Shown here piece after piece: positions 13,971 through 40,807 of a stretch of DNA of 64,000 bases; position 1 is the first letter of the stretch; each line of letters starts with the position of its first letter. The stretch is from contig JBBTSO010000004.1 of assembly GCA_038064695.1 (NCBI GenBank), forward strand, positions 114,165-178,164, given 5' to 3'. The notes under the pieces were generated by a model, which saw only the letters and a list, made by a program, of their open reading frames with translations, made no database searches and was not told where the DNA came from. The translations under genes and the position numbers were made by a program. The stretch comes from Patescibacteria group bacterium. Its GTDB lineage: Bacteria > Patescibacteriota > Minisyncoccia > Phycocordibacterales > Phycocordibacteraceae.

Positions 13971-14004
13971 ACAACTATATCTGACGGTCGTCAGATATAG
14001 TTGT
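13971..14004. repeat. 34-bp perfect palindrome ACAACTATATCTGACGG|TCGTCAGATATAGTTGT, member of a 3-copy family
   Basis: Reverse complement equals itself. Related copies at 31439-31487 and 40774-40807 share the core TCTGACGGNCGTCAGA. Confidence 0.6.
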
Positions 14005-14061
14005 ATTGATGGAAGGGTGTTTTACCCCTAAAGATAGGGATAACAGGGGAGTGGGGATAAC

Positions 14062-14090
14062 TTGCTTTTTGTAATAATGTATGGTATAAT
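14062..14090 (+). promoter_or_regulatory. Sigma70-like promoter TTGCTT-17-TATAAT upstream of the CAP-domain gene
   Basis: Read directly from the sequence, 52 bp upstream of the ATG at 14142. Confidence 0.55.
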
Positions 14091-14141
14091 ACACAGTACG
14101 TAAAAAGGCGACACATTTTCCTTGATACAATTCCAGTACTT

Positions 14142-15191
14142 ATGTTTCCAACATTCAAAAAATGGTTCATTCCAAGCTCGGAAAACGACTACCTGCCGTA
14201 CTCGGTACGCGTGGTTCCGTTTGTGCTTTTGAGCGCCTTTGTCGGATTTGTGTTCCTCACTTCAGCGTCGGTCCAGAAACTTTTAACTGACCAAGACAGC
14301 TTTCTCGCCGCGGTTGTTGCAAGCGTGCTCGTTGACCTCGCTAATGGCGACCGCGCGGGTGAAGGACTTCACGGGCTTTCAGTGAACCCAACCTTGGTTG
14401 AGGCGGCACAGGCAAAGGCAGATGATATGGCGCGCGCGGGATACTTTTCACACAACTCACCTGATGGGAAAACGCCGTGGTACTGGTTTGGAGAAGCGGG
14501 GTACCAATTTTCATACGCTGGTGAAAATCTCGCTGTCTTTTTTGGTGACTCAGCGGACGTTGAGCGTGCGTGGATGAATTCGCCTTCTCACCGCGCGAAC
14601 ATTTTGAGTTCAAATTTTACTGAAATTGGCATTGCTACTGCTGAAGGATATTATCAAGGTCAGCCAACGGTGTTTGTGGTTCAAATGTTTGGCGCGCCCG
14701 CAACGAAAAAACCACTCGCTACCGTTCAGACGAGTCCAGTATTGGGTGAAAGCGCGGAAACCATTGAAACTGGTTCTGTCGGAGGCGAAACTATTGAAGT
14801 AGTAACTGAAAACGATCCCGTTTCTACTCCTGTCGCCGTCCTGCCAAGCGAGCCTACTGTCATTCACGAAGATGATATGTTCATCGCGGTTAAAAATACC
14901 GACGTCGTGGAAGCGCCCAGCGACTATGCCGTGGAGCGTCAGACCAACATTGCAGAGCGCGTTGCCGCTTCACCACACACTACGCTGACGTATGTCTATG
15001 GTTTGATTGGAACTATTCTCGCACTTGCGGTAGTGTTGTTTGTCTTTTTGGAATTTCACATACAAAAACCAACGCACGTCTTTTTAAGTCTTGCGCTCAT
15101 CCTCTTCATGGGATTGTTACTTTTCTTCACCGACCACCACGTGGCACTTGCTGAGTTGCAAGCATTGAGCTCACTCCTTCCTCACTCATAA
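14142..15191 (+). CDS. Membrane-anchored CAP/SCP (PR-1-like, YkwD-type) domain protein
   Basis: GYFSHNSPDGKTPWYWF .. GENLAV .. AWMNSPSHRANIL matches the CAP-domain signature. N- and C-terminal hydrophobic helices. Confidence 0.7.
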   Translation: MFPTFKKWFIPSSENDYLPYSVRVVPFVLLSAFVGFVFLTSASVQKLLTDQDSFLAAVVASVLVDLANGDRAGEGLHGLSVNPTLVEAAQAKADDMARAGYFSHNSPDGKTPWYWFGEAGYQFSYAGENLAVFFGDSADVERAWMNSPSHRANILSSNFTEIGIATAEGYYQGQPTVFVVQMFGAPATKKPLATVQTSPVLGESAETIETGSVGGETIEVVTENDPVSTPVAVLPSEPTVIHEDDMFIAVKNTDVVEAPSDYAVERQTNIAERVAASPHTTLTYVYGLIGTILALAVVLFVFLEFHIQKPTHVFLSLALILFMGLLLFFTDHHVALAELQALSSLLPHS

Positions 15192-15193
15192 AT

Positions 15194-16357
15194 TCACGTC
15201 AGTGAAAGAGACCCGCGCGCCACGAGTGTTTTTTCCGTGTCTGTTCTTTTGTGGTGCGCGCGAAGTAATCCCGCGATGCCTATCATAATAGCGTTATCGC
15301 CGGTCAGTGATTTTTCAGGGTATCCAAAATAGATCCCAGGGAATTCTTCAACAACGAGCTTGTGCAGTGCTTCACGAATGTTTTGGTTAGCCGACACGCC
15401 ACCGCCAACGGCGAGTGTGCGTGCGCCGGTTTCATCAAGAGCTCGTTTTGTTTTTGAAACGAGCACGTCGCGGACTGCATTTTGAAATTCGTGCGCGATG
15501 TTTTCTTTATCAGATTCCGAAAGAGAGGGAATAGCTTCTACCATATATCGCACCGCGGTTTTAAGACCAGAAAATGAAAAGTCACACGACTGCTCGTGAA
15601 TCATGGGGCGGGGGAGCGTGAAAGGTTTTAGGGTATCGGTTTTAGGTTTTAGCTTTGCGGCGTACGTTTCTATGTGTGGACCGCCGGGGTACGGAAGCCC
15701 CAAAAGGCGCGCTACTTTGTCGTATGCTTCCCCCACGGCGTCGTCTTTCGTGCGCCCCACCAACTCGTAAGAAAACCACTCTTCCATAAGCACGAGTTCA
15801 GTGTGCCCGCCTGAAATAAGGAGACTTAACACCGGAAAGGCAACATCATGCATCGTAAATCGTACATTGTCCTCCGTATCAAGAAGTGCCGAAATAATGT
15901 GGCCTTCTAAGTGATTAACTCCTACCGCAGGAATATTCCATACCGCGCTCAGTGCATTGGCAAACGAGACCCCGCTCCACAGTGCTGGCTCTAACCCAGG
16001 GCCGTACGTTACCGCAATTAAATCAATGTCAGGTTTTTCGGTGTGTGCTAAAAACGCGCGCACGTTGTTTCTAAAATTTTCTTCTTTTATGTCAGAAAAA
16101 TTATCATATATGGTAATTTTTTCTTGAAGCGTTTTTAGTAAACCCGCTTCGGAAAGTGTTTTTGTGGTAAGAGGGACAAGGTTTTCTTGGTGTTCACGTT
16201 TTGCGAGGTTTGGATATACGCCTCCATACTCAGCGTGTTTTGACGCTTGAGAGTAGAGCGCGCTTCCAAGTACCGAGAATGTTTTTCCTACCGTGTCGCT
16301 CTCTATCACCGCGAGGGCGGTTTCGTCGCACGAGGTTTCTATAGCTAATACCTTCAT
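15194..16357 (-). CDS. tsaD: tRNA N6-adenosine threonylcarbamoyltransferase TsaD (Kae1/YgjD family) with an in-frame ~34-aa insertion
   Basis: MKVLAIETSCDETALAV, metal-binding NHLEGHI, GPGLxxAL motif. Insertion LKTLQEKITIYDNFSDIKEENFRNNVRAFLAHTE relative to canonical TsaD contains the 27-bp repeat at 16096-16122. The ORF-track start at 16381 adds 8 aa. Confidence 0.85.
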   Translation of the reverse strand: MKVLAIETSCDETALAVIESDTVGKTFSVLGSALYSQASKHAEYGGVYPNLAKREHQENLVPLTTKTLSEAGLLKTLQEKITIYDNFSDIKEENFRNNVRAFLAHTEKPDIDLIAVTYGPGLEPALWSGVSFANALSAVWNIPAVGVNHLEGHIISALLDTEDNVRFTMHDVAFPVLSLLISGGHTELVLMEEWFSYELVGRTKDDAVGEAYDKVARLLGLPYPGGPHIETYAAKLKPKTDTLKPFTLPRPMIHEQSCDFSFSGLKTAVRYMVEAIPSLSESDKENIAHEFQNAVRDVLVSKTKRALDETGARTLAVGGGVSANQNIREALHKLVVEEFPGIYFGYPEKSLTGDNAIMIGIAGLLRAHHKRTDTEKTLVARGSLSLT

Positions 16358-16389
16358 ACTTTGGTGAAGTAACGGTATCATGTCCTGAT

Positions 16390-17040
16390 ATGTCTGGCGA
16401 ATTTAAAGTAGTGGCGTTTGATGTTGACGGAACCTTGATGGAAAGCAATCTCTGGCCCCGTTTGCACAAAGTTATGGGACTCAACCAAGCGGTTGATACG
16501 GAGTGGATGCGACGCTACCTCAAAGGTGATTTAACGCTACGCGAGTGGTATACCAACATCGGCATTGCGTGGCGGACACATCCAGAGTCACGTTCAGTAT
16601 GTGAGGAAATTTGTAAAGATTTTACTTTATTACCGAATGCAGATCATTTAGTAAAAACAATTATGGGGCGTGGCATACCCGTTGCGCTCATTTCAAGTGG
16701 TTTAGATTTGTACGTGGAAGCGGTAGCGGCGCGCTTCGGAATTAGTCACGTCTATTGCTACACTAAAACCATATTTAATGAACAAGATTTTTTTCACGAT
16801 ATTACGTTCACTTCTCTACAGTCAGAACACAGCGCAAAGGTAGATGGTATTCGTGATTTAGAAAAAATATATGGTGTTAGTCCAGAGGAGGTTTTGTTTG
16901 TGGGGGACTCTATTAACGACTTGGAAGCGTTCCAATATACAAAACGGGGCATTTTATATGGAGAAGGAAACGAGACACTTCGAAGCGCGGCGTGGAAACA
17001 GGTGAACGATTTAAAGGACGTCCTTGCCTTTGTTGAGTAA
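16390..17040 (+). CDS. HAD-superfamily hydrolase (phosphoserine-phosphatase-like subfamily IB)
   Basis: Motif I VAFDVDGTL and motif IV FVGDSINDLEA. Confidence 0.7.
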   Translation: MSGEFKVVAFDVDGTLMESNLWPRLHKVMGLNQAVDTEWMRRYLKGDLTLREWYTNIGIAWRTHPESRSVCEEICKDFTLLPNADHLVKTIMGRGIPVALISSGLDLYVEAVAARFGISHVYCYTKTIFNEQDFFHDITFTSLQSEHSAKVDGIRDLEKIYGVSPEEVLFVGDSINDLEAFQYTKRGILYGEGNETLRSAAWKQVNDLKDVLAFVE

Positions 17041-17862
17041 CTTCCAGGGGGTAGGAGTTCCATAAGGGATTCTGAATGCGGCGGCGTTGGGGTGCCCATT
17101 ACCTCCATATTTTTTTGCGATATCTGAGAGGTCAACGGTACCGTCTCCGCGGAGAGAAACTGAAATGAAGTCACCTTTCGCTCTGGTGACGAGCGCGAGT
17201 GGGCCTTTTTTCTGCGCAAGTTTGTTGCCAACATCTGACTTAAACATATCGTGCGTGCTCACCAGGTAACACTGATATCCCTCAAACTCAACCAGTTCGG
17301 CGCTCTGCATTATTTTTTCAACGAGGAGGTTCCAGTGGCTTTTGTACGATGCCCCTTTATTTTTTATTTCGTTCCGAGTGTTTTCATTTTCTAGAAGCTG
17401 TTCCAAATTATTCCATGATTCAAAGGTGTATGGCTCTAAATACACGTAAGCCAAAATGGAGCGCGCATCCGGTAGGGTAAATGTATACAAGTCGCCATCC
17501 TGGACGTAGTTTAAAAGCTGAGGGCGTTTTTTTTCGGGGTGAAAATAGTCCCAGGCAATACCCGCACCAGAGCGTTTCTCGTCAAATACGAATTCTTGTA
17601 CTGACTCTACGTCACTCTTTGCCCCAAGGTGGTGGTCTAAAATAACCACCCGTTTTGCAATCTTTTGTAAACCAGCTAAGGTCTCTTTTGGATAGCTAAA
17701 GTCAGCAATGTACACTTCCTTTCCTTCAAGTCCTTCTGGGGGTGGTTTTTGGTGTTCTACGGGCAGGTAATCGGCTGTGTCGCCAAACTTCCTCCAGGCT
17801 GCATAGGCAGCGCCAAAACCGTCTGAGCATTGCGCATGGTACAGAATTACGATGTTTTTCAT
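17011..17862 (-). CDS. nrnA: DHH/DHHA1 phosphoesterase (NrnA-like nanoRNase / pAp phosphatase)
   Basis: DHH motif ILDHHLGAK and DHHA1 motif GGNGHPNAAAF. Confidence 0.75.
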   Translation of the reverse strand: MKNIVILYHAQCSDGFGAAYAAWRKFGDTADYLPVEHQKPPPEGLEGKEVYIADFSYPKETLAGLQKIAKRVVILDHHLGAKSDVESVQEFVFDEKRSGAGIAWDYFHPEKKRPQLLNYVQDGDLYTFTLPDARSILAYVYLEPYTFESWNNLEQLLENENTRNEIKNKGASYKSHWNLLVEKIMQSAELVEFEGYQCYLVSTHDMFKSDVGNKLAQKKGPLALVTRAKGDFISVSLRGDGTVDLSDIAKKYGGNGHPNAAAFRIPYGTPTPWKLLNKGKDVL

Positions 17863-18209
17863 ATATAGAAACCTATTATACCTCGCATGTTTTTTGCTGG
17901 AAAAACATGGTCGGGGCTGGTATCAGTGGTCACTCATAAATTTCCTGACGGAAATTTTGCGCGACCCGATAAAAGCGAACAAGAAGCTTTTGTCCGTGAG
18001 AGCGAAGCGATACACGCTCGTGATGTTCGCCTTGCCTACGGCAAACTCACACATGCCTGTGCCTCGCACAAGTGGTCACAGATATTTTGCTCGCCGTCGC
18101 TTGCAAAATTCTGCGACCCCGTCTCGCGTGTTTCTTCTGCTGGAGAAACATCGCTCCGACTCGCACAAAACCAGAAAATGGTCCGCAGGGACCATTATTC
18201 TGTGTTTTG

Positions 18210-18282
18210 TGCGCGACATAGGACTCGAACCTATAACATCCACAACGTCAATGTGGCGCTCTACCAATTGAGCTAGTCGCGC
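18210..18282 (-). tRNA. tRNA-Val (anticodon GAC)
   Basis: Cloverleaf folded by hand: GCGCGAC acceptor, D-arm GCTC/GAGC, anticodon loop TTGACGT, T-loop TTCGAGT. CCA is not encoded. Confidence 0.85.
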
Positions 18283-18464
18283 TTGAACCCTTGCATTATA
18301 GCCTTTAGAGGTATAGAATCAAAAATTATAATAATTAACGATAGAATTATGGGTAGTTTTGATGTATTTAAAGGATTTGTCGGTGTTTCAGAAGAGGCTT
18401 CAAGTCAAGGTAGTCCCTCTCGTCCTCCAAAAAAAGGACCATATCAGGGACCAAAAAAATAGCC

Positions 18465-19016
18465 TTGAAAATTGTTCTCTATCCAACAGATACGCTCTAC
18501 GGTCTTGGGGTTGATGCAACCAACCCCGAGGCCGTTTTGCGTTTACAGGATCTAAAAGGCAGGGGGGAAGAAAAGCCAATTTCTATAGTCGTTTCAGACC
18601 TCGCCATGATGAAAAACTACGCGATAGTGACACCTCTCGCGGAGCGTTTAATTACACAGTTTCTGCCAGGAAAACTAACGCTGGTTTTATGTTCGAAACC
18701 CGGGTTTCAAACACCGGGGGTGGTTGGGGCAGACGGTTCAGTGGGGATTCGCATTCCTAACCACCCTACGCCACTACGGCTTGTACGCGAGTTAGGGAAG
18801 CCCATTACTGCAACGAGCGCGAATGTATCAGGAATGGTGCCCGAGTCAACTCCACAAAAAATCCTCGCGCAGTTTAAAGAAAAAGCGTCGTGGATCACTG
18901 AGGTTTTTGACGAGGGCGCACTTCCTGAAAATGATGCGTCTACCGTCGTTGATGCGCGCGGTGATAAGCCTGTTATCCTACGTGAAGGCGCCATTGCCGT
19001 TTCAGAAATAATGTGA
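18465..19016 (+). CDS. tsaC: L-threonylcarbamoyladenylate synthase (TsaC/YrdC family)
   Basis: (M/L)KIVLYPTDTLYGLGVDATNPEAV, the YrdC fold signature. Apparent TTG start. Confidence 0.8.
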   Translation: MKIVLYPTDTLYGLGVDATNPEAVLRLQDLKGRGEEKPISIVVSDLAMMKNYAIVTPLAERLITQFLPGKLTLVLCSKPGFQTPGVVGADGSVGIRIPNHPTPLRLVRELGKPITATSANVSGMVPESTPQKILAQFKEKASWITEVFDEGALPENDASTVVDARGDKPVILREGAIAVSEIM

Positions 19017-19168
19017 TATTATAAAAAAAGCTGGTACTTGTAACCAAAAGGACAGCCGGAACAAAATGTACGCGAGGGAGCATACTCCCATAGAAAGAAG
19101 TCGCAAACGCCCGTGAGGCGTTTTTTTATGTTCCAGGTATATACTTTTGGTATATCGGCTTAGAACAT

Positions 19169-22253: not shown

Positions 22254-22269
22254 ATATAAAAATTGGGTG

Positions 22270-22354
22270 CGGAAACGGCGAGATTCGAACTCGCGGAGGT
22301 GTTACCCTCACTCGCTTTCCAAGCGAGCGCACTAGACCACTATGCGACGTTTCC
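22270..22354 (-). tRNA. tRNA-Ser (anticodon GGA), long variable arm
   Basis: Hand fold: acceptor GGAAACG/CGTTTCC, anticodon loop TTGGAAA, 16-nt variable arm, T-loop TTCGAAT. Confidence 0.8.
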
Positions 22355-23978: not shown

Positions 23979-23982
23979 CCTA

Positions 23983-24777: not shown

Positions 24778-24850
24778 ATTCACAGCAATATGCGATATTT
24801 CTTTCAGCAACTCAATAATAGGTTTTGAATTTGCTATCGTTAGGGTCATG

Positions 24851-24889
24851 CCACCAAAAAACACCCATTGCTTGGGTGTTTTTTGGTGG
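24851..24889. terminator. Rho-independent terminator (CCACCAAAAAACACCCA-TTGC-TTGGGTGTTTTTTGGTGG)
   Basis: GC stem with flanking A- and T-tracts, after the HEPN gene. Confidence 0.55.
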
Positions 24890-24929
24890 CACATGAATCG
24901 ATGAAGATAATCGAAAGTCGGACTGAGCG

Positions 24930-30757: not shown

Positions 30758-31393
30758 ATGCAAAAAGAAGTCGTCGCAAAAGCACTCTACCAGCTGAAAA
30801 AAGATTCACATCTGAAGGGGCTCATCGCGCGGTTTCCTGAACCCGATTTTGACGGTGGGCAAAAGGGTCTGACGGCCTTCCAGGCGCTTCTTCGGGCCAT
30901 TGTGTTTCAACAACTCTCTGGCAAGGCGGCGCGGACTATTCTTGACCGATTTTTGGAACAATTTCCGAAAGGGCGTTTTCCATCACCGGAAGAAGTAAAA
31001 AAACTACCCGAAAGCGCGTTCCGCTCCGCAGGTATATCTTCTCAAAAAACCAGCTATCTTAAAGACTTAGCAGAAAAGTTTCTTGACGGCACCGTAGTAC
31101 CAAAACATTTTTCAAAAATGACCGATGAAGAAATCCACGAACATGTCGTAGCAGTGAAAGGTGTTGGACCGTGGACGGCGGATATGTTTTTAATGTTTAC
31201 CTTGGGAAGGCCAGACGTGCTGCCGACGGGGGATTTAGGAATTCAAAAAGCAATGCAAAAATTATTTAAACTAAAAACTCTTCCAACTCCTGAAAAAATG
31301 CGCTCGCTTGCTGAAGAGTGGCGTCCCTACCGAACAGTCGCTTGCTGGTACTTATGGCGCCTTTCTGATGAAGGAAACACCAACCGCCCGTAA
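30758..31393 (+). CDS. HhH-GPD DNA glycosylase (AlkA-like 3-methyladenine DNA glycosylase II)
   Basis: VKGVGPWTADMFLMFTLGRPDVLPTGDLGIQKA: helix-hairpin-helix, Gly/Pro loop and catalytic Asp. Confidence 0.75.
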   Translation: MQKEVVAKALYQLKKDSHLKGLIARFPEPDFDGGQKGLTAFQALLRAIVFQQLSGKAARTILDRFLEQFPKGRFPSPEEVKKLPESAFRSAGISSQKTSYLKDLAEKFLDGTVVPKHFSKMTDEEIHEHVVAVKGVGPWTADMFLMFTLGRPDVLPTGDLGIQKAMQKLFKLKTLPTPEKMRSLAEEWRPYRTVACWYLWRLSDEGNTNRP

Positions 31394-31438: not shown

Positions 31439-31487
31439 CCCCCCAATTATCTCTGACGGTCGTCAGAGATAATTGGGGGGGGGGGGG
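31439..31487. repeat. Palindromic element CCCCCC-AATTATCTCTGACGGTCGTCAGAGATAATT-G13 (member of the 3-copy palindrome family) between convergent genes
   Basis: Perfect 30-bp palindrome with C6/G13 extensions, giving a stem of about 36 bp. Likely a bidirectional terminator/hairpin. Confidence 0.6.
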
Positions 31488-31534: not shown

Positions 31535-32440
31535 TTAGTAAAGGGCTTTGATGTCGGCTAGAGAGAACGTATGGTTTTGGGTTCCTTGGGTTTCAATAGC
31601 ATAGGAAGCGGCTGCTGAGGCAAGTTGAGCACATTCGCGTATAGAAAGGTCCATAGCGAGCCCCTTAATAAGTCCCGCACGGTACGCGTCTCCCGCGCCC
31701 GTGGGGTCGGTTACCACATCAGCAGGAACTTTATCTACTTCAATAACGGACCCTTCTGTGTGAATACGTGACCCTTCCTCTCCGAGAGTAGTAATTACCA
31801 CGGGCACGCGTTGGTACAATTCCTCTTCGGTCCATCCGAGTTTTGCAAGTGAGAGTGCCATTTCATAGTCGTTTGCCACAAAAATCCATGCATTTCCAAC
31901 GCACGTTCGGTACTCCTCAGGCGTAAATGTGGGTGTTTGTTGACCAGGATCAAAAATGTACCGCATGTCGTTAGCTTTACAGTGTTCCGCGAAAGCAAGC
32001 ATTTCTTTTGCGTACGACGGCGCGATGATGGTAATGCTGTCAGAACCAACAGGGAACTCACCAGGGTAAATATCACTTCCTGCGCCTTGGTGGAACCCCG
32101 TAATTTGGTTATTGTCGCGGTCAGACATAATGTGCGCCTGAGGGGTCAATTTCTCTGGTAGAGGTATCACGTGTTCACGCGATATCTTAATGCGAGAAAA
32201 ATATTCAAGGTACCGATTTCCGTCACCCCCCACTACGCTGTAGAGGATAGGGTCTATACCGAGAAGTTTTAAATTGTATGCAATATTGGCACCAGCACCA
32301 CCAAAACTTTCTTCTATAGTTTCAATGGGAAAGCTCACTGAGAGTGCGTGGATTTTGTCAGGCAAAAAGTGGTCTTTGAAACTACCATCAAAGTAAAGGA
32401 TACGGTCGTACGCAGTAGATCCTGTTACATTAATTTTCAT
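31535..32440 (-). CDS. PfkB-family carbohydrate/nucleoside kinase
   Basis: C-terminal DPTGAGDAYRAGLI (PfkB signature 2) and an N-terminal GG motif. Confidence 0.75.
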   Translation of the reverse strand: MKINVTGSTAYDRILYFDGSFKDHFLPDKIHALSVSFPIETIEESFGGAGANIAYNLKLLGIDPILYSVVGGDGNRYLEYFSRIKISREHVIPLPEKLTPQAHIMSDRDNNQITGFHQGAGSDIYPGEFPVGSDSITIIAPSYAKEMLAFAEHCKANDMRYIFDPGQQTPTFTPEEYRTCVGNAWIFVANDYEMALSLAKLGWTEEELYQRVPVVITTLGEEGSRIHTEGSVIEVDKVPADVVTDPTGAGDAYRAGLIKGLAMDLSIRECAQLASAAASYAIETQGTQNHTFSLADIKALY

Positions 32441-32446
32441 AGAGTG

Positions 32447-33370: not shown

Positions 33371-33374
33371 AAAA

Positions 33375-33397
33375 AGTAATGAGTTATGAGTAATGAG
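33375..33397. repeat. Heptad leader repeat AGTAATG-AGTTATG-AGTAATG immediately upstream of the trxB start
   Basis: 7-bp periodicity read directly. Same flavour as 46837-46871. Confidence 0.5.
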
Positions 33398-33429
33398 AAA
33401 AAACAACTACAGAAATACATTCTAACAAC

Positions 33430-33462
33430 AAACGCCGCGTCTATCTAGTGACGCGGCGTTTA
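33430..33462. terminator. Hairpin terminator AACGCCGCGTC-TATCTAGT-GACGCGGCGTT downstream of ftsZ
   Basis: Perfect 11-bp GC-rich stem. Located between the ftsZ stop and the trxB leader. Confidence 0.5.
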
Positions 33463-33473
33463 ATGGTTTAACC

Positions 33474-34676: not shown

Positions 34677-34754
34677 GTGTTTTTTTAACCCTAGTAAGTA
34701 GGACTATGATACTCGCTTCAGGGTGTTATGAAAAGCACTTGACTTTTTCTTGCT

Positions 34755-34825
34755 TTTAGTTGCTAGTTGTTAGCGGTTAGTTTCTAGCTAAACACTAGCC
34801 ACCAGTAACTAGCCACTAGTTTAGG
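34755..34825. repeat. TAG-heptad intergenic repeat block (TTTAGTTGCTAGTTGTTAGCGGTTAGTTTCTAGCTAAACACTAGCCACCAGTAACTAGCCACTAGTTTAG) between ftsA and ftsZ
   Basis: Built from the words TAGTTGT, TAGCGGT, TAGTTTC and their complements CTAGCCA/CTAACCA, which recur at at least 9 other intergenic loci. Confidence 0.6.
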
Positions 34826-35993: not shown

Positions 35994-36097
35994 GGTATTA
36001 AAATGGTGTGTGGTGCGTGAGCGCCTTTTTATTGTACCTTAGCGCGCGGACTTTCTTGGTACGGGCGCACGCCAACCTGTTAGGAACACTGACGTAC

Positions 36098-36493
36098 TTA
36101 GCGCAGCGGCTTCTGTAGTTTAAACGCGCGTAGCCATCGGTCTTCCAATTTTTCCATTGTACGCCCGTGGGTGTACCCCTTCAAATGTAAACACCCGTGG
36201 ATAAAAACATACGCGAGGTATGCGCGAGGGGAGAGTGAAAAGAGTGATGCTTTTTTGGTCACGCTCCTCATATGGAGTACTATTTCACCGGAGTTTTTTG
36301 AGAGGGGAAATGAAAGAATATCGGTCGGAGTATTTTTTTTTCGATACGTGGCGTTTAAGTCGCGCATTCGTTTTTCACCCACAAAAACCACTGAGAGCGC
36401 GTATGACCCTCCAAGAATTTTTTCTTTAATAACAGAAAACGCCACGCGGGGTAGGGAACTCCGCGTGGCGTTTTTTAGTGAAAAGGTGTCCAT
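36098..36493 (-). CDS. ybeY: Endoribonuclease YbeY (rRNA maturation factor)
   Basis: DILSFP and the zinc-binding motif HGCLHLKGYTH (HxxxHxxGxxH). Confidence 0.85.
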   Translation of the reverse strand: MDTFSLKNATRSSLPRVAFSVIKEKILGGSYALSVVFVGEKRMRDLNATYRKKNTPTDILSFPLSKNSGEIVLHMRSVTKKASLFSLSPRAYLAYVFIHGCLHLKGYTHGRTMEKLEDRWLRAFKLQKPLR

Positions 36494-36496
36494 TGT

Positions 36497-36745
36497 CTAA
36501 CGGCGTCGTCCTCGAACTTGCGGCACAATGAGGCCCAATTTTTCTTTCTCCTCACGCTCTTCAACGCGTTCAATTCTGCGGAGTGCTGAGGCGCGCTTCT
36601 TGGTTTTTGAAAGCGTGCGCGTGTGGTAGCGAATACTCTTCGCGCGACGAACGACGCCCGACCCCTGAACGCGTTTTGAAAAACGTCTAATTAAAGACGG
36701 GGTTGATTCAGACCCGGTTTTCTTTACTGATGCGGTAATTGCCAT
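36497..36745 (-). CDS. rpsU: 30S ribosomal protein S21
   Basis: LIRRFSKRVQGSGVVRRAKSIRYHTRTLSKTKKRASALRR aligned by eye to S21 (ALRRFKR..G....RRR..YEKP...RKRAKA.A.KR). Strongly basic. Confidence 0.65.
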   Translation of the reverse strand: MAITASVKKTGSESTPSLIRRFSKRVQGSGVVRRAKSIRYHTRTLSKTKKRASALRRIERVEEREEKEKLGLIVPQVRGRRR

Positions 36746-36792
36746 AGTTTTTCAATTAAAACACACCATTGGCTTTTCTGCAATGCACCCCC

Positions 36793-37896
36793 TTAGGCGC
36801 GAACGCGTGACATGCGGTTTAGGAGTGTTGAAACGGGGATTGTTTCTTGCATTTGGGTTCCGGTATTTTTAATAATGACCGTGTTGTCCAACGCCTCTCG
36901 CTGTCCAATAATGGCGACGTACTTTGTCTCCGATTCGCGTGCATGGCGCATTTGTTCATCAATAGTTTCGGCAAGCAGCGCTTGGCCGAGCGTAATGTGT
37001 GCTCTCCACAGCGAGTCAAGGAGCGTAAATGCTTTCAGTTTTGCTGCTTCTCCCACGTGGACCACAAAACAAGCAGGGACCTGTTTTGTAGAAGTTCCGC
37101 GTACATCAACCACGTCAGGCATAGACACTGACATTCCCACCAACTCTAGAGCGTCTTTCTTCTTTCCTTGGTATTCAAAGCGTCCGCCCTTGGCAACGTG
37201 CACGCGCGTGCCTTTTTCATCAATACCTGAAATAGCAAATACGAGCTCTTGGTTCACCTCGGGCGTGTAGGGAAGACGCGCGTCCAGTTCGTACTGGATA
37301 CCTAGTTTTTCAAAGAGGGTGATGGTCTCCAACATTATTTTTCGTGATGGTTCCGAAAGATAATCAATGGTGCGGGGCAGTGAGTCGGTGAGAGGGTGTC
37401 CTGACTCAACAATCGTCGTAGCGGCTGCCTCTGGGTGTTTGAGCGCGAGTGAAAGGATGTCATCAGGGAGTTCTTTTCCATACTTTTTGAAAAAGTTTCC
37501 GAGCTCACGCAAGTAGCGGCGTCTACTCTCGGCATCCCCCACGGAAGAAATGAGCACCACGGTTTCGGCAAACCCTGCTGCTTCCACGACACTGAGCGCG
37601 GCCTTTACCACAAACGCTTGAGCGATGGCAATTTTTGCGCTGAGTGCGGTGAACACTACCGCGGTACCGTTTCCTTTTCGCGCGGTTCCCCACGCCTGCG
37701 TGGTTTGGGTAACCGGTCCCATTTTTCCGGCAACGGTAGCAATGAAGCCAGTGTCTTTGTCCAGCCCTTCAGGAATATCATTCGCGTCTTTGCGCGTTAC
37801 GGACACCGGGGGGTTCGTAAATCCGTATGCGCGTGCAACTGAAATAATTTGTGCATCCAGTGATTCTCTCTCTCGGCCTCGTTCAAATGATTTCAT
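36793..37896 (-). CDS. Histidyl-tRNA synthetase-like protein (HisS/HisZ family) that appears to lack the canonical class II motif 2/His-binding region
   Basis: Motif-3 region AKGGRFEYQGKK..LVGMSVSM, HisRS insertion domain and a class II anticodon-binding C-terminus align to HisRS, but no FRxERPQ.GRxREF motif is found. Only 367 aa and directly abutting lepB, so there is no room for a longer N-terminus. Confidence 0.55.
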   Translation of the reverse strand: MKSFERGRERESLDAQIISVARAYGFTNPPVSVTRKDANDIPEGLDKDTGFIATVAGKMGPVTQTTQAWGTARKGNGTAVVFTALSAKIAIAQAFVVKAALSVVEAAGFAETVVLISSVGDAESRRRYLRELGNFFKKYGKELPDDILSLALKHPEAAATTIVESGHPLTDSLPRTIDYLSEPSRKIMLETITLFEKLGIQYELDARLPYTPEVNQELVFAISGIDEKGTRVHVAKGGRFEYQGKKKDALELVGMSVSMPDVVDVRGTSTKQVPACFVVHVGEAAKLKAFTLLDSLWRAHITLGQALLAETIDEQMRHARESETKYVAIIGQREALDNTVIIKNTGTQMQETIPVSTLLNRMSRVRA

Positions 37897-37899
37897 ATA

Positions 37900-38463
37900 T
37901 TATTGTCCCTGCGTGTACGCACCAGGAAACATATCAACGCGCGTTACTGGAAGGAGTCGCAAAAACGCGCGTCCCACTACTTCATTTCGTTTCAATACAC
38001 CCCACGAACGCGAGTCTGAACTTTCTCTTCGATTGTCACCCATCACGAAGTACTCGTTGTCGCCGAGCACGTACACGCCGTACTCATCTTGCAGTCGGTC
38101 TTCAGCAATGTACGGTTCGTCTAACGTAATGACGGGGAGATTGTTACCACGTTCTATCACGATGCGTTTCCCAATAATTTCCACCGTTTCTCCGGGGAGG
38201 CCAATGACCCGCTTAATGAAGAAAATAGATTCGTCTTTTGGATATTTCAAAATGATGACGTCACCACGTTCTGGATCGCCAAGGCGGTAGGAGATTTGGT
38301 CAACAATGAGGTATTCGCCACCGAGAAAGGTTGGTTCCATAGATGCGCCACGCACAATGTATGGCTGCGCGATGAACATACGTATAGGAAGTACGATCAG
38401 GAGCGCAATGAGAGCAAATTTCACTAGGTCATCCACCAGAGTGTCGTGACGTTCGTGTTCCAT
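37900..38463 (-). CDS. lepB: Signal peptidase I
   Basis: S26 boxes GASMEPTF (catalytic Ser), KRVIGLPGE (Lys), GDNRRESSDSR. Confidence 0.85.
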   Translation of the reverse strand: MEHERHDTLVDDLVKFALIALLIVLPIRMFIAQPYIVRGASMEPTFLGGEYLIVDQISYRLGDPERGDVIILKYPKDESIFFIKRVIGLPGETVEIIGKRIVIERGNNLPVITLDEPYIAEDRLQDEYGVYVLGDNEYFVMGDNRRESSDSRSWGVLKRNEVVGRAFLRLLPVTRVDMFPGAYTQGQ

Positions 38464-38657
38464 TCACCACATTGTACGCACCTGCACACGTCGGTCAACT
38501 ATATTTTTAAAAAAAGCGTTGTAGAAACTTTTTTTTCGGAGATTGGGTTGGCACAAAGTCCTTTTCTTCAGAGAGATAAACGCTACAAGCTCTTGCGAAA
38601 AGGCTTTTGTGCGGCGTCGTTGTACTTTCTGATACACTATATGTGTGTTTCTGGGGA

Positions 38658-38690
38658 CTAGAAACTAACCGCTAGCCACTAGCACCTATT
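38658..38690. repeat. TAG-heptad repeat CTAGAAACTAACCGCTAGCCACTAGCACCTATT ending 3 bp before the pth start codon
   Basis: Reverse complement of words in the 34755 block. The CACTAGCACCTA motif also occurs twice at 41595-41625. Confidence 0.6.
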
Positions 38691-38693
38691 TTT

Positions 38694-39299
38694 ATGTACA
38701 CCATTGTTGGTTTGGGTAATCCTGGAGGGGAATATAATTACACGCGTCACAATACAGGAAGAATGATTGTTGAAAAAATGGCTTCCGAGGGCGCTGTTTC
38801 TCTAAAACAAAAGAAAAAACCCGATCTTTGGGTTGGCACGGGAGATGTAGTGGGTGAGCAGGTGCGCCTCGTACTGCCGGATACGTTTATGAATAATTCA
38901 GGGAAAGCGGTGGCGTTCTATATAAAGAGTGTCAGCGCGGCAAAGAAGCTTGTGGTGGTGTATGACGACATAGATTTGCCATTGGGCGTGGTGCGCGTGG
39001 CGTTCGGTTCAAGTTCAGGTGGCCACAATGGGGTAAAAAGTGTGGAGCGTGCTCTTAAAACAAAGGATTTTATTAAAGTACGCGTGGGCGTTGCTAAAGC
39101 GGCGCGCGGAAAAGCAAAAAAACCAGTAGGGGAGAAGGCAGTGCTCGCGCACCTTCTTTCTAAATTTTCTAAAAAAGAGCATGAGCTGGTGGTGGGTGGC
39201 GTGTACGAGCGCGTCTTGGTCGCGCTCGCTGCTATTTTTGAAAGTGGTGACCCTGTGAAAGGGATGAATGCGGTTAATGGTCTCCCACTTGCATCGTAA
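38694..39299 (+). CDS. pth: Peptidyl-tRNA hydrolase
   Basis: MYTIVGLGNPGGEYNYTRHNTG and the catalytic His/Asp motifs. Confidence 0.9.
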   Translation: MYTIVGLGNPGGEYNYTRHNTGRMIVEKMASEGAVSLKQKKKPDLWVGTGDVVGEQVRLVLPDTFMNNSGKAVAFYIKSVSAAKKLVVVYDDIDLPLGVVRVAFGSSSGGHNGVKSVERALKTKDFIKVRVGVAKAARGKAKKPVGEKAVLAHLLSKFSKKEHELVVGGVYERVLVALAAIFESGDPVKGMNAVNGLPLAS

Positions 39300-39300
39300 C

Positions 39301-39337
39301 AAAAACACCCCCGCGTACGCGGGGGTGTTTTTGTTTA
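39301..39337. terminator. Bidirectional rho-independent terminator (AAAAACACCCCCGCG-TAC-GCGGGGGTGTTTTTGTTT) between convergent pth and rpsA
   Basis: Perfect GC stem with flanking A- and T-tracts. Confidence 0.65.
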
Positions 39338-39341
39338 AGAA

Positions 39342-40421
39342 CTATTTCGCCTTTGTGTATGAGAGGGTCATCTTGTGCTCTTTTGGATCAAAGAGCGTAA
39401 TTTTGAATTTGTAGACTTTTCCCAAGCCAAGCTCATTTTTGAGTGCTGCTTCGCTTTCAAATTCAGAAACGTGTACCAAGCCCGCAACGCCTTCTTCAAT
39501 TGAGGCGAGCGCGCCGTACTTGTTGTATTTAATGACGGCTGCCTCCACGAGGTCATCTTTTTTGTATTTTTTCGCCGCGGTAGTCCATGGGTCGTCACCA
39601 AGTTGTTTGATTGAGAGGGAAATTTTTCCGTCTTTCACGTCAATCACTTTCACTTTCACCTTATCTCCGACTTTTGCAAAGGTGCGTGGATCTTCTACCA
39701 AACCCCAGTCAATTTCTGAAATGTGAACTAAGCCCTCAAGTCCGCCGTCAACTTTAACAAAGATACCAAAGTCAACGATGCCGGTGACTTCGCCTGAAAG
39801 AACATCGCCAACCGCGTACTGGTCAACGTTTGTTGAAACAGGAGTTTCTTCGCTGGTGTCACGTTCAGAGAAAATAAGTTTTCCTTCGCGTGGGTCCGCG
39901 GTAATGATACGCACCGAGAGCGTTGTTCCAATCAATTTTTTCAACTCATCAAGAATGAGTTGTTTCTCACCGTTAGCGACGCGTGGGTAGTGTTCTGTTC
40001 GCAATTGACTTGCGGGCAAAAAGCCGTTAATACCTTGCCACCCGATAATGAGTCCGCCTTTGTTTGCGTCTTTCACCGTGAGTTCAAAGACATTGCCTCC
40101 GGCGATAGCGCGTTCAGCATCAGACCAAATCATTGCTTGGCGAGCTTCTTTGAGTGAGAGTTCAATGTATCCGTCTTTGTTTTCAGTTTCTACAATTTTT
40201 GCAGAAATGATGTCGCCGAGCGCAACTTTTTTAAGAATGTCGCGTGCGGCTAGGTATTCTCTTCCGTAAATAATTCCGGTGCCGTAGGGAGGGAGGTCAA
40301 TGTAAACTTTACCGCTTGAAAGGGCGACCACCGGGCCCTCAATAGTTTCTCCTACGCTCGGAAGTGTTGTTGTTTCTTCTAGGAGAGTGTTCATCACACT
40401 CTCAGTATTGTGTTGATTCAT
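39342..40421 (-). CDS. rpsA: 30S ribosomal protein S1 (four S1 domains)
   Basis: Four repeats of the S1 fold pattern (G.V.G.V..I..FG.FV.....GL.H.SE). Confidence 0.85.
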   Translation of the reverse strand: MNQHNTESVMNTLLEETTTLPSVGETIEGPVVALSSGKVYIDLPPYGTGIIYGREYLAARDILKKVALGDIISAKIVETENKDGYIELSLKEARQAMIWSDAERAIAGGNVFELTVKDANKGGLIIGWQGINGFLPASQLRTEHYPRVANGEKQLILDELKKLIGTTLSVRIITADPREGKLIFSERDTSEETPVSTNVDQYAVGDVLSGEVTGIVDFGIFVKVDGGLEGLVHISEIDWGLVEDPRTFAKVGDKVKVKVIDVKDGKISLSIKQLGDDPWTTAAKKYKKDDLVEAAVIKYNKYGALASIEEGVAGLVHVSEFESEAALKNELGLGKVYKFKITLFDPKEHKMTLSYTKAK

Positions 40422-40456
40422 GAGTAGTAGACAGTAATCGGATTGGTACTTCGTAA

Positions 40457-40488
40457 GTTTCTAGCGGTTAGTGGCTAGTTGCTAGGAA
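40457..40488. repeat. TAG-heptad repeat GTTTCTAGCGGTTAGTGGCTAGTTGCTAGG, 35-65 bp upstream of the rpsA start
   Basis: Same words as the 34755 and 38658 blocks. Confidence 0.6.
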
Positions 40489-40633
40489 GGGTTAACCGGA
40501 TCCAAAGTGGCTAAATCCTTCATTAAATAGAGGGATTTACTAAAAGAGGATAACATACTTGCGTTCAAAAATAAAGGGAGTAGTATGCTCCCAAGCCAAC
40601 GACTTTAAAGCCATTGGCGGCTTAGCAGCTTTA

Positions 40634-40732
40634 ATGTCAAAAGATACTATGATTTCAGGACACGATGGTCTTGATCACCACATGAGTGGAGGTCATCACG
40701 ACGATGACGATGATCACAAAAAGCATCATTAG
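40634..40732 (+). CDS. Candidate 32-aa His/Asp-rich micro-protein MSKDTMISGHDGLDHHMSGGHHDDDDDHKKHH
   Basis: Preceded by AAAGGGAG (Shine-Dalgarno-like) about 45 nt upstream and an AT-rich leader. Followed within 7 nt by a strong intrinsic terminator. Absent from the ORF track only because it is under 60 aa. Confidence 0.3.
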   Translation: MSKDTMISGHDGLDHHMSGGHHDDDDDHKKHH

Positions 40733-40738
40733 TTAGCA

Positions 40739-40770
40739 AAAAACCACCCGCTCTATCGGGTGGTTTTTTT
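40739..40770. terminator. Rho-independent terminator (AAAAACCACCCG-CTCTAT-CGGGTGGTTTTTTT)
   Basis: Perfect GC stem plus T7 tract. Confidence 0.6.
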
Positions 40771-40773
40771 AAT

Positions 40774-40807
40774 ACAATTATCTCTGACGGCCGTCAGAGA
40801 TAATTGT
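40774..40807. repeat. 34-bp perfect palindrome ACAATTATCTCTGACGG|CCGTCAGAGATAATTGT (member of the 3-copy family)
   Basis: Self-complementary. Core shared with 13971 and 31439. Confidence 0.6.

What the first reader, a model, noticed from the sequence alone, without database searches (positions are those of the whole stretch)
13971..40807. Family of three ~34-bp perfect palindromes with compensatory variation (core TCTGACGGNCGTCAGA)
- Copies: 13971-14004 (ACAACTATATCTGACGGTCGTCAGATATAGTTGT), 31439-31487 (C6-AATTATCTCTGACGGTCGTCAGAGATAATT-G13) and 40774-40807 (ACAATTATCTCTGACGGCCGTCAGAGATAATTGT).
- Each copy is individually a perfect palindrome even where the copies differ (CTATA/TATAG versus TTATC/GATAA; central GGTCG versus GGCCG). 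Substitutions have been matched on both arms, which implies selection for dyad symmetry or hairpin formation.
- All three lie in intergenic DNA just downstream of a terminator or between convergent genes.
- Candidates: a REP-like extragenic palindrome, a binding site for a dimeric nucleoid/partition/recombination protein, or an RNA hairpin.
Basis: seen in the sequence. Interest (0 to 1): 0.55.

Follow-up and report, generated by a model that had tools for sequence, protein, structure and literature searches.

The report
Dispersed palindromes tied to mini-PaaX gene
The three palindromes are real: they are stray copies of a roughly 38-bp palindromic DNA repeat found across the tiny-celled "candidate phyla radiation" bacteria, and in every case checked the repeat also brackets the gene for a small DNA-binding protein with a Cas2-like domain, a pairing I found no description of.

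Summary
Three palindromes share the core TCTGACGGYCGTCAGA, and their arm differences are mirrored. True extents are 13969-14006, 31439-31480 (plus a G-run) and 40772-40809. Two copies have a non-self-complementary GT centre, so they are not strictly perfect.

The palindromes belong to a large family in Patescibacteria. Public scans gave 83 copies. The core is constant, the 11-bp arms vary but stay Watson-Crick mirrored, and the unit ends sharply at about 38 bp.

- **Location.** Copies avoid divergent promoter regions and often start within 20 nt of a stop codon.
- **Coding insertions.** Some copies sit in frame inside tsaD and murF.
- **Linked gene.** A ~190-aa mini-PaaX protein (winged helix plus Cas2-like domain) is bracketed by two such palindromes. 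This held in 7 of 7 protein-selected loci and 11 palindrome-selected ones.
- **Same genome.** The same MAG as the window (GCA_964357335.1) encodes this protein elsewhere, flanked by the same ATACA...TCTGACGGCCGTCAGA...TGTAT palindromes.

Best reading: these are solo copies of a REP-like insertional repeat that serves as the dyad site of that dimeric protein. E. coli PaaX binds a dyad of the same span, TGATTC-N27-GAATCA. Binding and the spreading mechanism are inferred, not shown. DNA-uptake signal, chance and an RNA-only hairpin are rejected or disfavoured.

The parts
13969..14006 (.). Copy c1: ATACAACTATA-TCTGACGGTCGTCAGA-TATAGTTGTAT. This is a 38-bp dyad with a GT centre. It is a solo copy lying between the pilin gene (13445-13900, +) and the CAP/SCP-domain gene (14142-15191, +).
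   Evidence: As single-stranded DNA it folds into a hairpin with a 4-nt loop, -14.9 kcal/mol, z = -7.2. The copy is identical in five other assemblies of the same population.
31439..31487 (.). Copy c2: C6-AATTATC-TCTGACGGTCGTCAGA-GATAATT-G13. The dyad spans 31439-31480 (20+GT+20). The outer ATA of the arm is replaced by CCC and mirrored as GGG. It is followed by seven surplus G. It lies between the convergent HhH-GPD glycosylase gene (30758-31393, +) and the PfkB kinase gene (31535-32440, -).
   Evidence: On the minus strand it scores as terminator-like, with the hairpin followed by CAATTTTTGA. Other assemblies of the same population break at the G-run.
40772..40809 (.). Copy c3: ATACAATTATC-TCTGACGGCCGTCAGA-GATAATTGTAT. 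This is a perfect 38-bp palindrome with a GC centre. It is a solo copy lying between a 57-aa ORF with its terminator and the metallo-beta-lactamase-fold gene (ATG near 40876, +).
13912..13941 (+). Terminator-like hairpin of the pilin gene (AAAAACACCCAGC-CAAC-GCTGGGTGTTTTT). It is not part of the repeat family. It shows that c1 is not needed as that gene's terminator.
   Evidence: (I21).
40738..40769 (+). Terminator-like hairpin (AAAAAACCACCCG-N6-CGGGTGGTTTTTT) immediately 5' of c3. It is not part of the repeat family.
   Evidence: (I19).

Best explanation
The three palindromes are solo copies of a family of about 38-bp palindromic repeats centred on CGGYCG and found across Patescibacteria.

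**The unit.** Each unit has three parts:
- a central hexamer, CGGYCG;
- a lineage-specific inner core (here TCTGAC / GTCAGA);
- 11-bp arms that vary from copy to copy but stay mirrored, with genome-specific outer ends (here ATACA...TGTAT).

**The partner.** The family partner is a mini-PaaX protein of about 190 aa: an N-terminal winged helix plus a Cas2-like dimerisation or nuclease-fold domain, without the PaaX ligand domain. Its gene is bracketed by two copies. One overlaps or abuts its start codon and the other lies just after its stop codon.

**Inferred mechanism.**
- The protein dimer binds the dyad. The span matches the E. coli PaaX operator TGATTC-N27-GAATCA. The winged helices would sit on the outer arms and the Cas2-like dimer over the conserved centre.
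- The upstream copy gives autoregulation of the gene.
- Further copies arise by insertion. They survive where they do little harm, namely at gene 3' ends and in tolerant protein loops.
- There they may add hairpin or roadblock termination.
- Arm symmetry and centre flips are maintained at the DNA level, by binding-site symmetry, by intrastrand template switching in the hairpin or cruciform, or by both.

**Shown versus inferred.** Shown: family membership, anatomy, genomic distribution, the gene linkage, and the presence of the cognate gene in the same MAG. Inferred: protein binding, any nuclease or mobilising activity, and any function of the solo copies.
For: **Family.**
- A strict pattern found 9 loci in Saccharibacteria, Azambacteria, Colwellbacteria and Taylorbacteria MAGs.
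- The same core gave at least 118 metagenome loci.
- The exact symmetric extension beyond the core is bimodal. It is 8-32 nt on contigs of 34-50% GC and 0-4 nt on high-GC contigs, and 0-1 nt on all 23 viral contigs.

**Anatomy.**
- Arm offsets 7-11, which were not used to select the family, pair in 81-97% of copies while carrying only 0.1-0.5 bit of sequence information.
- Pairing falls to 52% at offset 12 and to about 30% beyond.
- 93.5% of cells pair, against 66% in shuffles. The covariation score is 0.664 against 0.144, with 0 of 500 shuffles as high.

**Orthologs.**
- L086 and L141 have 99.3% identical flanks yet two mirrored changes in the palindrome.
- L074 and L093 (about 91% identical) show several mirrored substitutions plus a mirrored 1-bp indel.

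**Gene link.**
- 13 of 63 palindrome-selected loci carry the same PF20803 (PaaX_M) protein within 0-56 nt in most cases.
- That gene has a second, variant palindrome just upstream.
- 7 of 7 independent protein-selected loci have CGRYCG-centred dyads on both sides: L156-L159, L165, L167 and L169. The dyads in L157 and L167 are imperfect, and those in L159 fell below the automated palindrome threshold and were read by eye.

**Same genome.**
- The window is 99.7% identical to contig 4 of GCA_964357335.1.
- Contig 3 of that MAG encodes mini-PaaX P0122. It is flanked by cccATACAATTATGTCTGACGGCCGTCAGACATAATTGTATggg, which covers its ATG, and by cccATACATCTATCTCTGACGGCCGTCAAAGATAGATGTATggg.
- A third, solo copy lies 5.4 kb away.

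**Protein.** The AlphaFold model has pLDDT 82.6. The best PDB match is E. coli PaaX (8A39), followed by Cas2 structures. The Cas2 motif FDIPE..R..R...Q.SVW is invariant in the family.

**PaaX operator.** TGATTC(N27)GAATCA is a 39-bp dyad (PMC9493321).

**Insertional behaviour.**
- In-frame copies occur in tsaD at two different sites and in murF.
- The gene cassette sits inside the atp operon and inside an r-protein operon.

**Placement.** 26 tandem, 13 convergent and 1 divergent, against about 7.6 divergent expected (p = 0.002). Counting c3 as divergent, as first called, p = 0.011.
Against: - No binding, cleavage or transposition has been shown.
- The window itself has no mini-PaaX gene. The link to P0122 rests on MAG binning.
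- No target-site duplication or clear empty site was recovered, so insertion is inferred from in-frame copies and operon interruptions only.
- My scans required TCTGACGG...CGTCAGA, so family statistics describe one subfamily.
- The family definition (at least 6 symmetric bases) forces pairing at offsets 1-6.
- The most conserved part of the repeat is the centre, whereas in the E. coli PaaX operator the centre is an unconserved spacer. The binding geometry may therefore differ.
- Copies at 3' ends and inside essential genes are odd places for a repressor site.
- The centre flips could in principle be assembler choices at a palindrome.
Confidence: 0.55

Rival explanations
1. Pure regulon operators. 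The palindromes are ordinary repressor sites of the mini-PaaX protein and control the genes downstream of them (here the CAP-domain and MBL-fold genes). They are not mobile and have no hairpin role.
For: - The PaaX family are repressors that bind a dyad of similar span and autoregulate.
- The gene's upstream copy overlaps its own start codon or promoter zone.
- c1 and c3 lie 135 and about 65 nt upstream of genes.
- In the window's subfamily the arm reads GATAAT outward, which is -10-like.
Against: - Copies are depleted in divergent (promoter-rich) spacers and enriched in convergent ones.
- c2 and many others face only 3' ends.
- A second copy always follows the regulator's own stop codon.
- In-frame copies occur inside tsaD and murF.
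- Uncontacted arm positions would not need to stay mirrored under this model.
Confidence: 0.15
2. Protein-independent hairpins. The elements act at the RNA level as terminators or 3' stabilisers, as many REP or SPRITE-type repeats do. The adjacent gene is a passenger.
For: - Copies sit at gene 3' ends, often 0-20 nt after a stop codon.
- c2 is terminator-like on the minus strand.
- Some relatives are embedded between A-runs and T-runs, for example L057.
- The predicted hairpins are strong.
Against: - c1 and c3 directly follow a canonical terminator and have no T-run.
- Pairs are strictly Watson-Crick. Only 6 G.U-type cells occur against 21 other mismatches in the variable arm pairs, so there is no RNA-type tolerance.
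- A structure-only role does not explain a 16-nt core kept across distant lineages.
- It also does not explain the constant bracketing of one gene family.
Confidence: 0.1
3. Recombination sites. The palindromes are crossover sites for a host tyrosine or serine recombinase (dif/pdif-like or attC-like). The mini-PaaX gene is a cassette that moves between them, and solo copies are empty sites.
For: - The gene is bracketed by two sites, like a pdif module or an integron cassette.
- The cassette is found inside conserved operons.
- A symmetric site with an asymmetric central dinucleotide that flips between orthologs resembles a crossover core.
- One copy lies 20 nt from a Xer-like gene in L008.
Against: - Exchange between different copies would create hybrid, non-mirrored arms, yet more than 85% of arm pairs are mirrored.
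- No recombinase is consistently nearby.
- The two copies flanking a gene show no consistent relative orientation of the centre.
- Integration into pre-existing sites does not explain in-frame copies in coding loops.
Confidence: 0.1
4. DNA-uptake signal sequences for the type IV pilus competence system, paired as inverted repeats as with the Neisseria DUS.
For: - The core resembles an inverted DUS pair in form.
- CPR bacteria rely on DNA uptake (own knowledge).
- c1 lies next to a pilin operon.
Against: - The half-site TCTGACGG is not enriched outside the palindromes. It occurs 11 times in 370 kb against a mean of 6.9 for permuted 8-mers.
- Density is only about 1 per 20 kb.
- The motif never occurs as a single unit in the window.
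Confidence: 0.01
5. Chance resemblance or an assembly artefact.
For: Contigs break at c2's G-run. Palindromes can confuse assemblers.
Against: - Only 0.12 matches are expected by chance.
- The sequence is identical in five independent assemblies.
- There are dozens of related copies in unrelated samples.
Confidence: 0.01

Closest known systems
REP / REPIN elements with their RAYT gene (Proteobacteria)
   Same: - Short extragenic palindromes dispersed through a genome.
- Genome-specific sequence.
- Preference for gene 3' ends.
- A single-copy associated gene that is itself flanked by copies of the repeat.
   Different: - The associated protein is a winged-helix plus Cas2-like (PaaX_M) protein, not a Y1 HUH transposase.
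- The repeats are near-perfect 38-bp dyads with an invariant centre, rather than imperfect hairpins with a 5' GTAG.
- The core is conserved across distant lineages.
- Copy density is modest, about 1 per 14-20 kb in this genome.
E. coli PaaX repressor and its operator TGATTC-N27-GAATCA
   Same: - The protein shares the winged helix and the central Cas2-like domain.
- The operator is a dyad of about 39 bp.
- The regulator gene carries a site at its own promoter.
   Different: - The CPR protein lacks the C-terminal ligand-binding domain.
- It keeps the Cas2 FDIPE/R/R/Q.SVW motif that E. coli PaaX has lost.
- The conserved part of the DNA site is the centre, not only the outer hexamers.
- Sites are dispersed at 3' ends and inside genes, and there is no paa catabolic operon.
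Rickettsia palindromic elements (RPEs) and other MITEs
   Same: Palindromic repeats that are found in frame inside essential protein-coding genes and are translated (PMC10969869).
   Different: - RPEs are about 100-150 bp, are restricted to Rickettsia and have no known partner gene.
- Here the element is 32-46 bp, no terminal inverted repeat plus target duplication was seen, and a partner gene exists.
Cas2 of CRISPR-Cas adaptation modules
   Same: The same fold and the same conserved motif. Many family members are auto-annotated as 'CRISPR-associated endonuclease Cas2'.
   Different: - There is no Cas1 and no repeat-spacer array.
- The palindromes are solitary and 9-17 kb apart.
- The Cas2-like domain is fused to a DNA-binding winged helix.
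Neisseria DUS inverted pairs, and matS / parS-type chromosomal dyads
   Same: A short conserved dyad at moderate density, often at gene ends.
   Different: - Half-sites are not enriched.
- Arms beyond the core are mirrored.
- Copies are linked to one flanked gene.

Membership tests
REP/REPIN-RAYT system | Short palindromic repeats, mostly extragenic, in many copies per genome | tested here: met
   There are 3 copies in the 64-kb window and 3 more in 20 kb of another contig of the same MAG. Copies are intergenic and biased to 3' ends.
REP/REPIN-RAYT system | Associated gene encodes a RAYT (Y1 HUH, IS200-like transposase) | tested here: not met
   The linked gene is PF20803 PaaX_M / Cas2-like with a winged helix. 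A Y1_Tnp gene seen in L156 has its own, different palindromes.
REP/REPIN-RAYT system | The associated gene is flanked by copies of the repeat | tested here: met
   This held in 11 palindrome-selected and 7 of 7 protein-selected loci.
MITE | Terminal inverted repeats with flanking target-site duplication, and a parent IS encoding a transposase | tested here: not met
   There are no direct repeats flanking c1-c3. The outer ends are the least conserved part of the element. No transposase is among the recurrent neighbours. No empty site was recovered, so the target-duplication test is weak.
Rickettsia palindromic elements | In-frame insertion into protein-coding genes | tested here: met
   Relatives lie in tsaD (L087, L170) and murF (L081). 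None of the three window copies is inside a gene.
Rickettsia palindromic elements | About 100-150 bp element of Rickettsia with a conserved peptide | tested here: not met
   The elements here are 32-46 bp and occur in Patescibacteria.
Intrinsic (rho-independent) terminator | G+C-rich stem directly followed by a T-run on the transcribed strand | tested here: inconclusive
   c2 qualifies on the minus strand. c1 and c3 have no T-run and follow a separate canonical terminator. No transcript data are available.
PaaX-type operator | Dyad of about 39 bp recognised by a PaaX-family dimer, present at the regulator's own promoter | tested here: met
   The dyads are 38-44 bp. In L165 and L169 the upstream copy lies 0-2 nt from, or overlaps, the start codon. 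The operator span is from PMC9493321.
PaaX-type operator | Physical binding by the protein, relieved by an effector | not testable with these tools
   This needs EMSA or footprinting. The ligand-binding C-terminal domain is absent.
DNA uptake sequence (DUS/USS) | Single short motif strongly over-represented genome-wide, in both orientations and inside genes | tested here: not met
   The half-site is not enriched outside the palindromes.
CRISPR array / Cas2 adaptation module | Tandem direct repeats separated by spacers, with Cas1 next to Cas2 | tested here: not met
   Copies are solitary and 9-17 kb apart. No Cas1 appears in any of the gene neighbourhoods.
Known RNA families (Rfam) | Match to a curated covariance model | tested here: not met
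   Only 11 tRNAs reach gathering score in the window.

The most novel reading that the evidence does not exclude
A previously unrecognised selfish or domesticated element class in CPR bacteria. A Cas2-fold protein fused to a winged helix recognises a 38-bp palindrome and also acts on it at the conserved CGGYCG centre, by nicking, hairpin formation or inversion. In doing so it spreads and homogenises its own sites. This would be a functional analogue of REP-RAYT built on a Cas2 scaffold, and it would bear on where the CRISPR adaptation protein Cas2 came from.
Probability: 0.25. Interest if true: 0.85.

Novelty: new variant of a known kind. Interest (0 to 1): 0.7.

Why it matters
- **Repeat biology of CPR bacteria.** These bacteria make up a large share of bacterial diversity and have tiny genomes thought to be poor in repeats. 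Here a dispersed repeat with a conserved core spans distant lineages, enters essential genes in frame, and travels with one protein family of more than 1,400 members.
- **Annotation.** Members of that protein family are currently mislabelled 'Cas2' or 'PaaX'. This work gives them a concrete, testable DNA partner.
- **A second route to REP-like repeats.** If the protein proves to act on the sites, dispersed palindromes would have a partner other than HUH transposases. The Cas2 fold would also gain a role outside CRISPR.
- **Assembly.** The palindromes, and the G-run at c2, are assembly break points in these MAGs.

Tried and rejected
- **DNA-uptake signal.** Rejected, because the half-site is not enriched.
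- **Chance.** Rejected.
- **Known RNA family.** None matches.
- **Further or degenerate copies in the window.** None found.
- **A mini-PaaX homolog inside the window.** None found by profile search of all six frames.
- **Enterobacter and Cedecea matches.** These have the same 16-nt core with a GG centre and lie downstream of rcsA. They are absent from E. coli and are treated as a coincidental hairpin.
- **Alphaproteobacterial and Chloroflexi matches.** They lack flank symmetry, so they are chance hits.
- **parS, matS, dif and NrdR-box resemblances.** These were recalled from memory. They were dropped because the sequences or spacing differ and the mirrored arms do not fit.
- **Hybrid-arm test of the recombination model on L168.** Inconclusive.
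- **Outward -10-like GATAAT in the arms.** It is present only in one subfamily, 14-18 of 56 copies, so it is not a family feature.
- **Literature.** Searches for the motif, for PaaX with Patescibacteria, and for PaaX with Cas2 found nothing.
- **Strain variation at the window's own sites.** Look-ups returned only identical copies from the same aquifer population. Presence/absence at these three sites therefore could not be tested.

Full report
**1. Observation**

The three elements are in the sequence as described. The 16-nt core TCTGACGGNCGTCAGA occurs only at these three places in 64 kb, against 0.12 expected from shuffles. Looser searches add nothing above chance.

- c1 is 13969-14006, ATACAACTATA|TCTGACGGTCGTCAGA|TATAGTTGTAT.
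- c2 is 31439-31480, with C6/G6 replacing the outer bases and seven surplus G.
- c3 is 40772-40809, ATACAATTATC|TCTGACGGCCGTCAGA|GATAATTGTAT.

One correction is needed. In c1 and c2 the central dinucleotide is GT, which is not self-complementary. Only c3 is a perfect palindrome.

The arm differences between copies are all mirrored: two between c1 and c3, and three between c2 and c3. c1 and c3 each follow a canonical terminator-like hairpin. c2 sits between convergent genes. Rfam finds only tRNAs in the window.

**2. A large family outside the window**

A strict 20-base pattern scanned over one genome per species returned 14 loci. Nine were from Saccharibacteria, Azambacteria, Colwellbacteria and Taylorbacteria MAGs. 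In every one of those the flanks beyond the pattern differ in sequence but are mirrored for 7-19 nt.

The exact symmetric extension beyond the core is bimodal:
- 8-32 nt on contigs of 34-50% G+C;
- 0-4 nt on high-G+C contigs;
- 0-1 nt on all 23 viral contigs that match the bare core, which serves as a chance control.

This gives 83 family instances, 69 of them unique.

**3. Anatomy of the unit**

Across the unique copies, the arm positions that played no part in selecting the family (offsets 7-11 from the core) are paired in 81-97% of copies. They carry only 0.1-0.5 bit of sequence information. Pairing then drops to 52% at offset 12 and to about 30% beyond. The unit is therefore a discrete dyad of about 38 bp.

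A formal count on 56 distinct copies gives 93.5% of cells paired, against 66% in shuffles. The covariation score is 0.664 against 0.144, with 0 of 500 shuffles as high, and slid controls give 34-52% paired.

The pairs are strictly Watson-Crick. Among the variable arm pairs there are only 6 G.U-type cells against 21 other mismatches. The constraint therefore acts on DNA symmetry or on both strands, not on an RNA from one strand.

The centre is GC in 42 copies, GT/AC in 37 and something else in 4, three of which are the Enterobacter/Cedecea hits. The 5' arm almost never contains G, and the 3' arm almost never contains C.

**4. Where the copies sit**

With a crude gene map of the loci, the copies fall as follows: 25 between tandem genes, 13 between convergent genes and 2 between divergent genes. 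One of the two divergent cases is c3, which really follows a small ORF and its terminator.

Against the intergenic space of the same loci, divergent spacers are depleted: 1-2 observed against about 7.6 expected, p = 0.002-0.011. Convergent spacers are enriched: 13 against 7.5. Many copies begin 0-20 nt after a stop codon.

The half-site TCTGACGG is not enriched outside the palindromes, which excludes a DUS-like signal.

Some of the copies my gene map placed inside ORFs are real coding insertions:
- In L087 a 42-bp copy lies in frame in a loop of tsaD (…FLDKQLSPFSDGRQKKGIMFPA…).
- In L081 a 40-bp copy lies in frame in a murF-like gene (…HTTFLTAVRNVVW…).
- Among tsaD orthologs the basal loop is short (E-NPK-IE).
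- Other orthologs carry a palindrome-encoded peptide at a second site. For P0246 the DNA there is a perfect dyad, CTTACAAACCTCACGGTCGTGAGGTTTGTAAG.

This is the behaviour known for Rickettsia palindromic elements (PMC10969869).

**5. Evolution at orthologous sites**

Fifteen groups of orthologous loci keep the element in place.
- L086 and L141 are 99.3% identical in 2 kb of flank, yet they differ by two substitutions in the palindrome, each mirrored on the other arm.
- L074 and L093 (about 91% identical) differ by several substitutions and a 1-bp indel per arm, all mirrored.
- In three groups the asymmetric centre is inverted between orthologs (GT against AC in L005/L007, L149/L057 and L125/L138). 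BLAST aligns the whole 38 bp at 100% on the opposite strand.

Mirrored change plus centre inversion is what intrastrand template switching at a palindrome produces (established mutational mechanism, own knowledge). Mirrored arms alone therefore do not prove selection. An assembler artefact cannot be fully excluded for the flips.

**6. The linked gene**

I clustered all neighbouring ORFs of the family loci. One protein family stood out: 13 loci, 27-98% identical, about 185-197 aa, mostly 0-56 nt from the palindrome.

Pfam assigns it to PF20803, the 'PaaX central Cas2-like domain' (E = 1e-12 to 1e-23), with weak Cas2 hits. NCBIfam gives sub-threshold PaaX and borderline Cas2 hits.

The gene is bracketed. 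The canonical palindrome follows its stop codon. A variant palindrome lies just upstream of its start, with cores such as TTTGACGGCCGTCAAA, AACTGACGGCCGTCAGTT, AAATGACGGCCGTCATTT and TCCGACGGCCGTCGGA.

A profile search finds 1,413 relatives, essentially all from Patescibacteria. They are often auto-named 'CRISPR-associated endonuclease Cas2' or 'PaaX'.

I then chose loci by protein rather than by palindrome. All 7 independent loci (L156, L157, L158, L159, L165, L167, L169) have dyads on both sides of the gene, though those in L157 and L167 are imperfect and those in L159 fell below the automated palindrome threshold and were read by eye. The inner cores are lineage-specific (CTACGATCGTAG, GATACGRYCGTATC, GTGCGGTCGCAC and others), but the centre CGRYCG is common to all.

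The cassette is found inside an r-protein operon (between L5 and S8) and inside the atp operon (between atpB and atpE, on the opposite strand).

**7. The window's own genome**

The window is 99.7% identical to contig 4 of MAG GCA_964357335.1. The same genes occur in Hainich H41 groundwater assemblies.

Contig 3 of the same MAG, and a contig from the same sample, encode mini-PaaX P0122 (187 aa). On one side it is flanked by cccATACAATTATGTCTGACGGCCGTCAGACATAATTGTATggg, whose right arm contains the ATG. On the other side, 21 nt after the stop, it is flanked by cccATACATCTATCTCTGACGGCCGTCAAAGATAGATGTATggg. A solo copy lies 5.4 kb away.

Across the six copies known in this genome:
- the outer ATACA/TGTAT and the 16-nt core are kept;
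- c2 has CCCCA/TGGGG in place of the outer ATACA/TGTAT;
- positions -1, -5 and -6 vary in mirrored fashion.

No homolog of the protein is encoded in the window itself.

**8. The protein, and how the element probably works**

The AlphaFold model of P0122 has mean pLDDT 82.6. It shows an N-terminal winged helix and a C-terminal ferredoxin-like domain. Its best PDB match is E. coli PaaX (8A39), followed by many Cas2 structures (by sequence).

The family keeps the Cas2 motif (F-D-I-P-E, two or three Arg, Q-x-S-V-W) as invariant or nearly invariant columns. E. coli PaaX has lost this motif. The C-terminal ligand domain of PaaX is absent.

E. coli PaaX binds TGATTC(N27)GAATCA, a 39-bp dyad, and represses its own promoter (PMC9493321). 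The CPR unit has the same span.

I therefore infer the following:
- A mini-PaaX dimer binds the dyad, with the winged helices on the genome-specific outer arms and the Cas2-like dimer near the conserved centre.
- The upstream copy gives autoregulation.
- The solo copies, including c1-c3, are further cognate sites that arose by insertion and persist where they are tolerated.

Whether the protein also nicks, inverts or spreads the sites is open. Whether the solo copies serve the cell as auxiliary hairpin or roadblock terminators is also open.

**9. Comparison and novelty**

The element works most like a REP/RAYT pair: dispersed extragenic palindromes plus a partner gene flanked by them. It fails the defining RAYT test, because the partner is not an HUH transposase.

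It shares the dyad span and the protein family with the PaaX operator. It differs in which part of the site is conserved, in where the sites lie, and in lacking the effector domain.

It shares in-frame insertion with RPEs, but not size, host or the partner gene.

It is not a CRISPR array, a DUS or an Rfam family.

I found no description of this pairing in the searchable literature. I rate it a new variant of a known kind. There is a minority reading, of about one in four, that a Cas2-fold protein actively propagates its own palindromic sites.

**10. Limits**

- All functional statements are inferred from sequence.
- The scans were restricted to the TCTGACGG subfamily.
- The link between the window and P0122 depends on MAG binning.
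- No empty site or target duplication was recovered.
- The window's three sites showed no variation in the available assemblies.

Noticed in passing
window 39298-39335: A perfect 38-bp palindrome, AACAAAAACACCCCCGCGTACGCGGGGGTGTTTTTGTT, lies between the convergent pth and S1-domain genes. It looks like an ordinary bidirectional terminator and is unrelated to the family. Similar A-run/T-run hairpins occur at 24849-24891, 7885-7922 and 36436-36474.
   Followed up: partly
window 31475-31487 (G-run after c2): Four of five other assemblies of the same population end at this G-run. Contig 4 of GCA_964357335.1 ends here in poly-G junk. The run length (12-13 or more) is therefore uncertain, and the site is an assembly break point.
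   Followed up: yes
L156 6415-7405: A Y1_Tnp (IS200/RAYT-like) gene is preceded by its own, different palindromes (TATCTGTGGGATATCCGATATCCCACAGATA). This is a separate REP/RAYT-like pair in a Patescibacteria genome, 2.6 kb from the mini-PaaX cassette.
   Followed up: no
tsaD orthologs P0241-P0280 (window tsaD is 15194-16381, minus strand): The loop between NHIEAHILVNFL and FPAISLVVSGG is an insertion hot spot in CPR TsaD. The basal form is E-NPK-IE, and many orthologs carry 8-30 extra residues (for example KINGNSKSEILNPK). Some of these look as if they are encoded by other palindromic DNA.
   Followed up: partly
L158 9957-17100 and L168 1031-2227: The mini-PaaX cassette interrupts conserved operons. 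In one case it lies between the ribosomal protein L5 and S8 genes, together with about 6 kb of hypothetical genes. In the other it lies between atpB and atpE on the opposite strand.
   Followed up: partly
L003, L004, L009 (Enterobacter, Cedecea): A 36-bp dyad, gtatttaATCTCTGACGGGCGTCAGAGATtaaatac, has the same 16-nt core but a GG centre. It lies downstream of rcsA, is conserved in three species and is absent from E. coli genomes. It is probably a coincidental hairpin.
   Followed up: partly
window 40559-40732: A 57-aa ORF ends in a His/Asp-rich tail (HHMSGGHHDDDDDHKKHH) and has its own terminator just before c3. It may be a metal-binding peptide.
   Followed up: no
window 13996-14001 and 40799-40804, and the mirror positions: In the window's subfamily the arm next to the core reads TATAGT or GATAAT outward on both strands, which is -10-like. 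This holds for 14-18 of 56 family members only.
   Followed up: partly
window 10892-13900: An operon of type IV pilin-like genes lies upstream of c1. An Azambacteria locus (L002) has a similar pilin operon with a family palindrome one gene further downstream.
   Followed up: no
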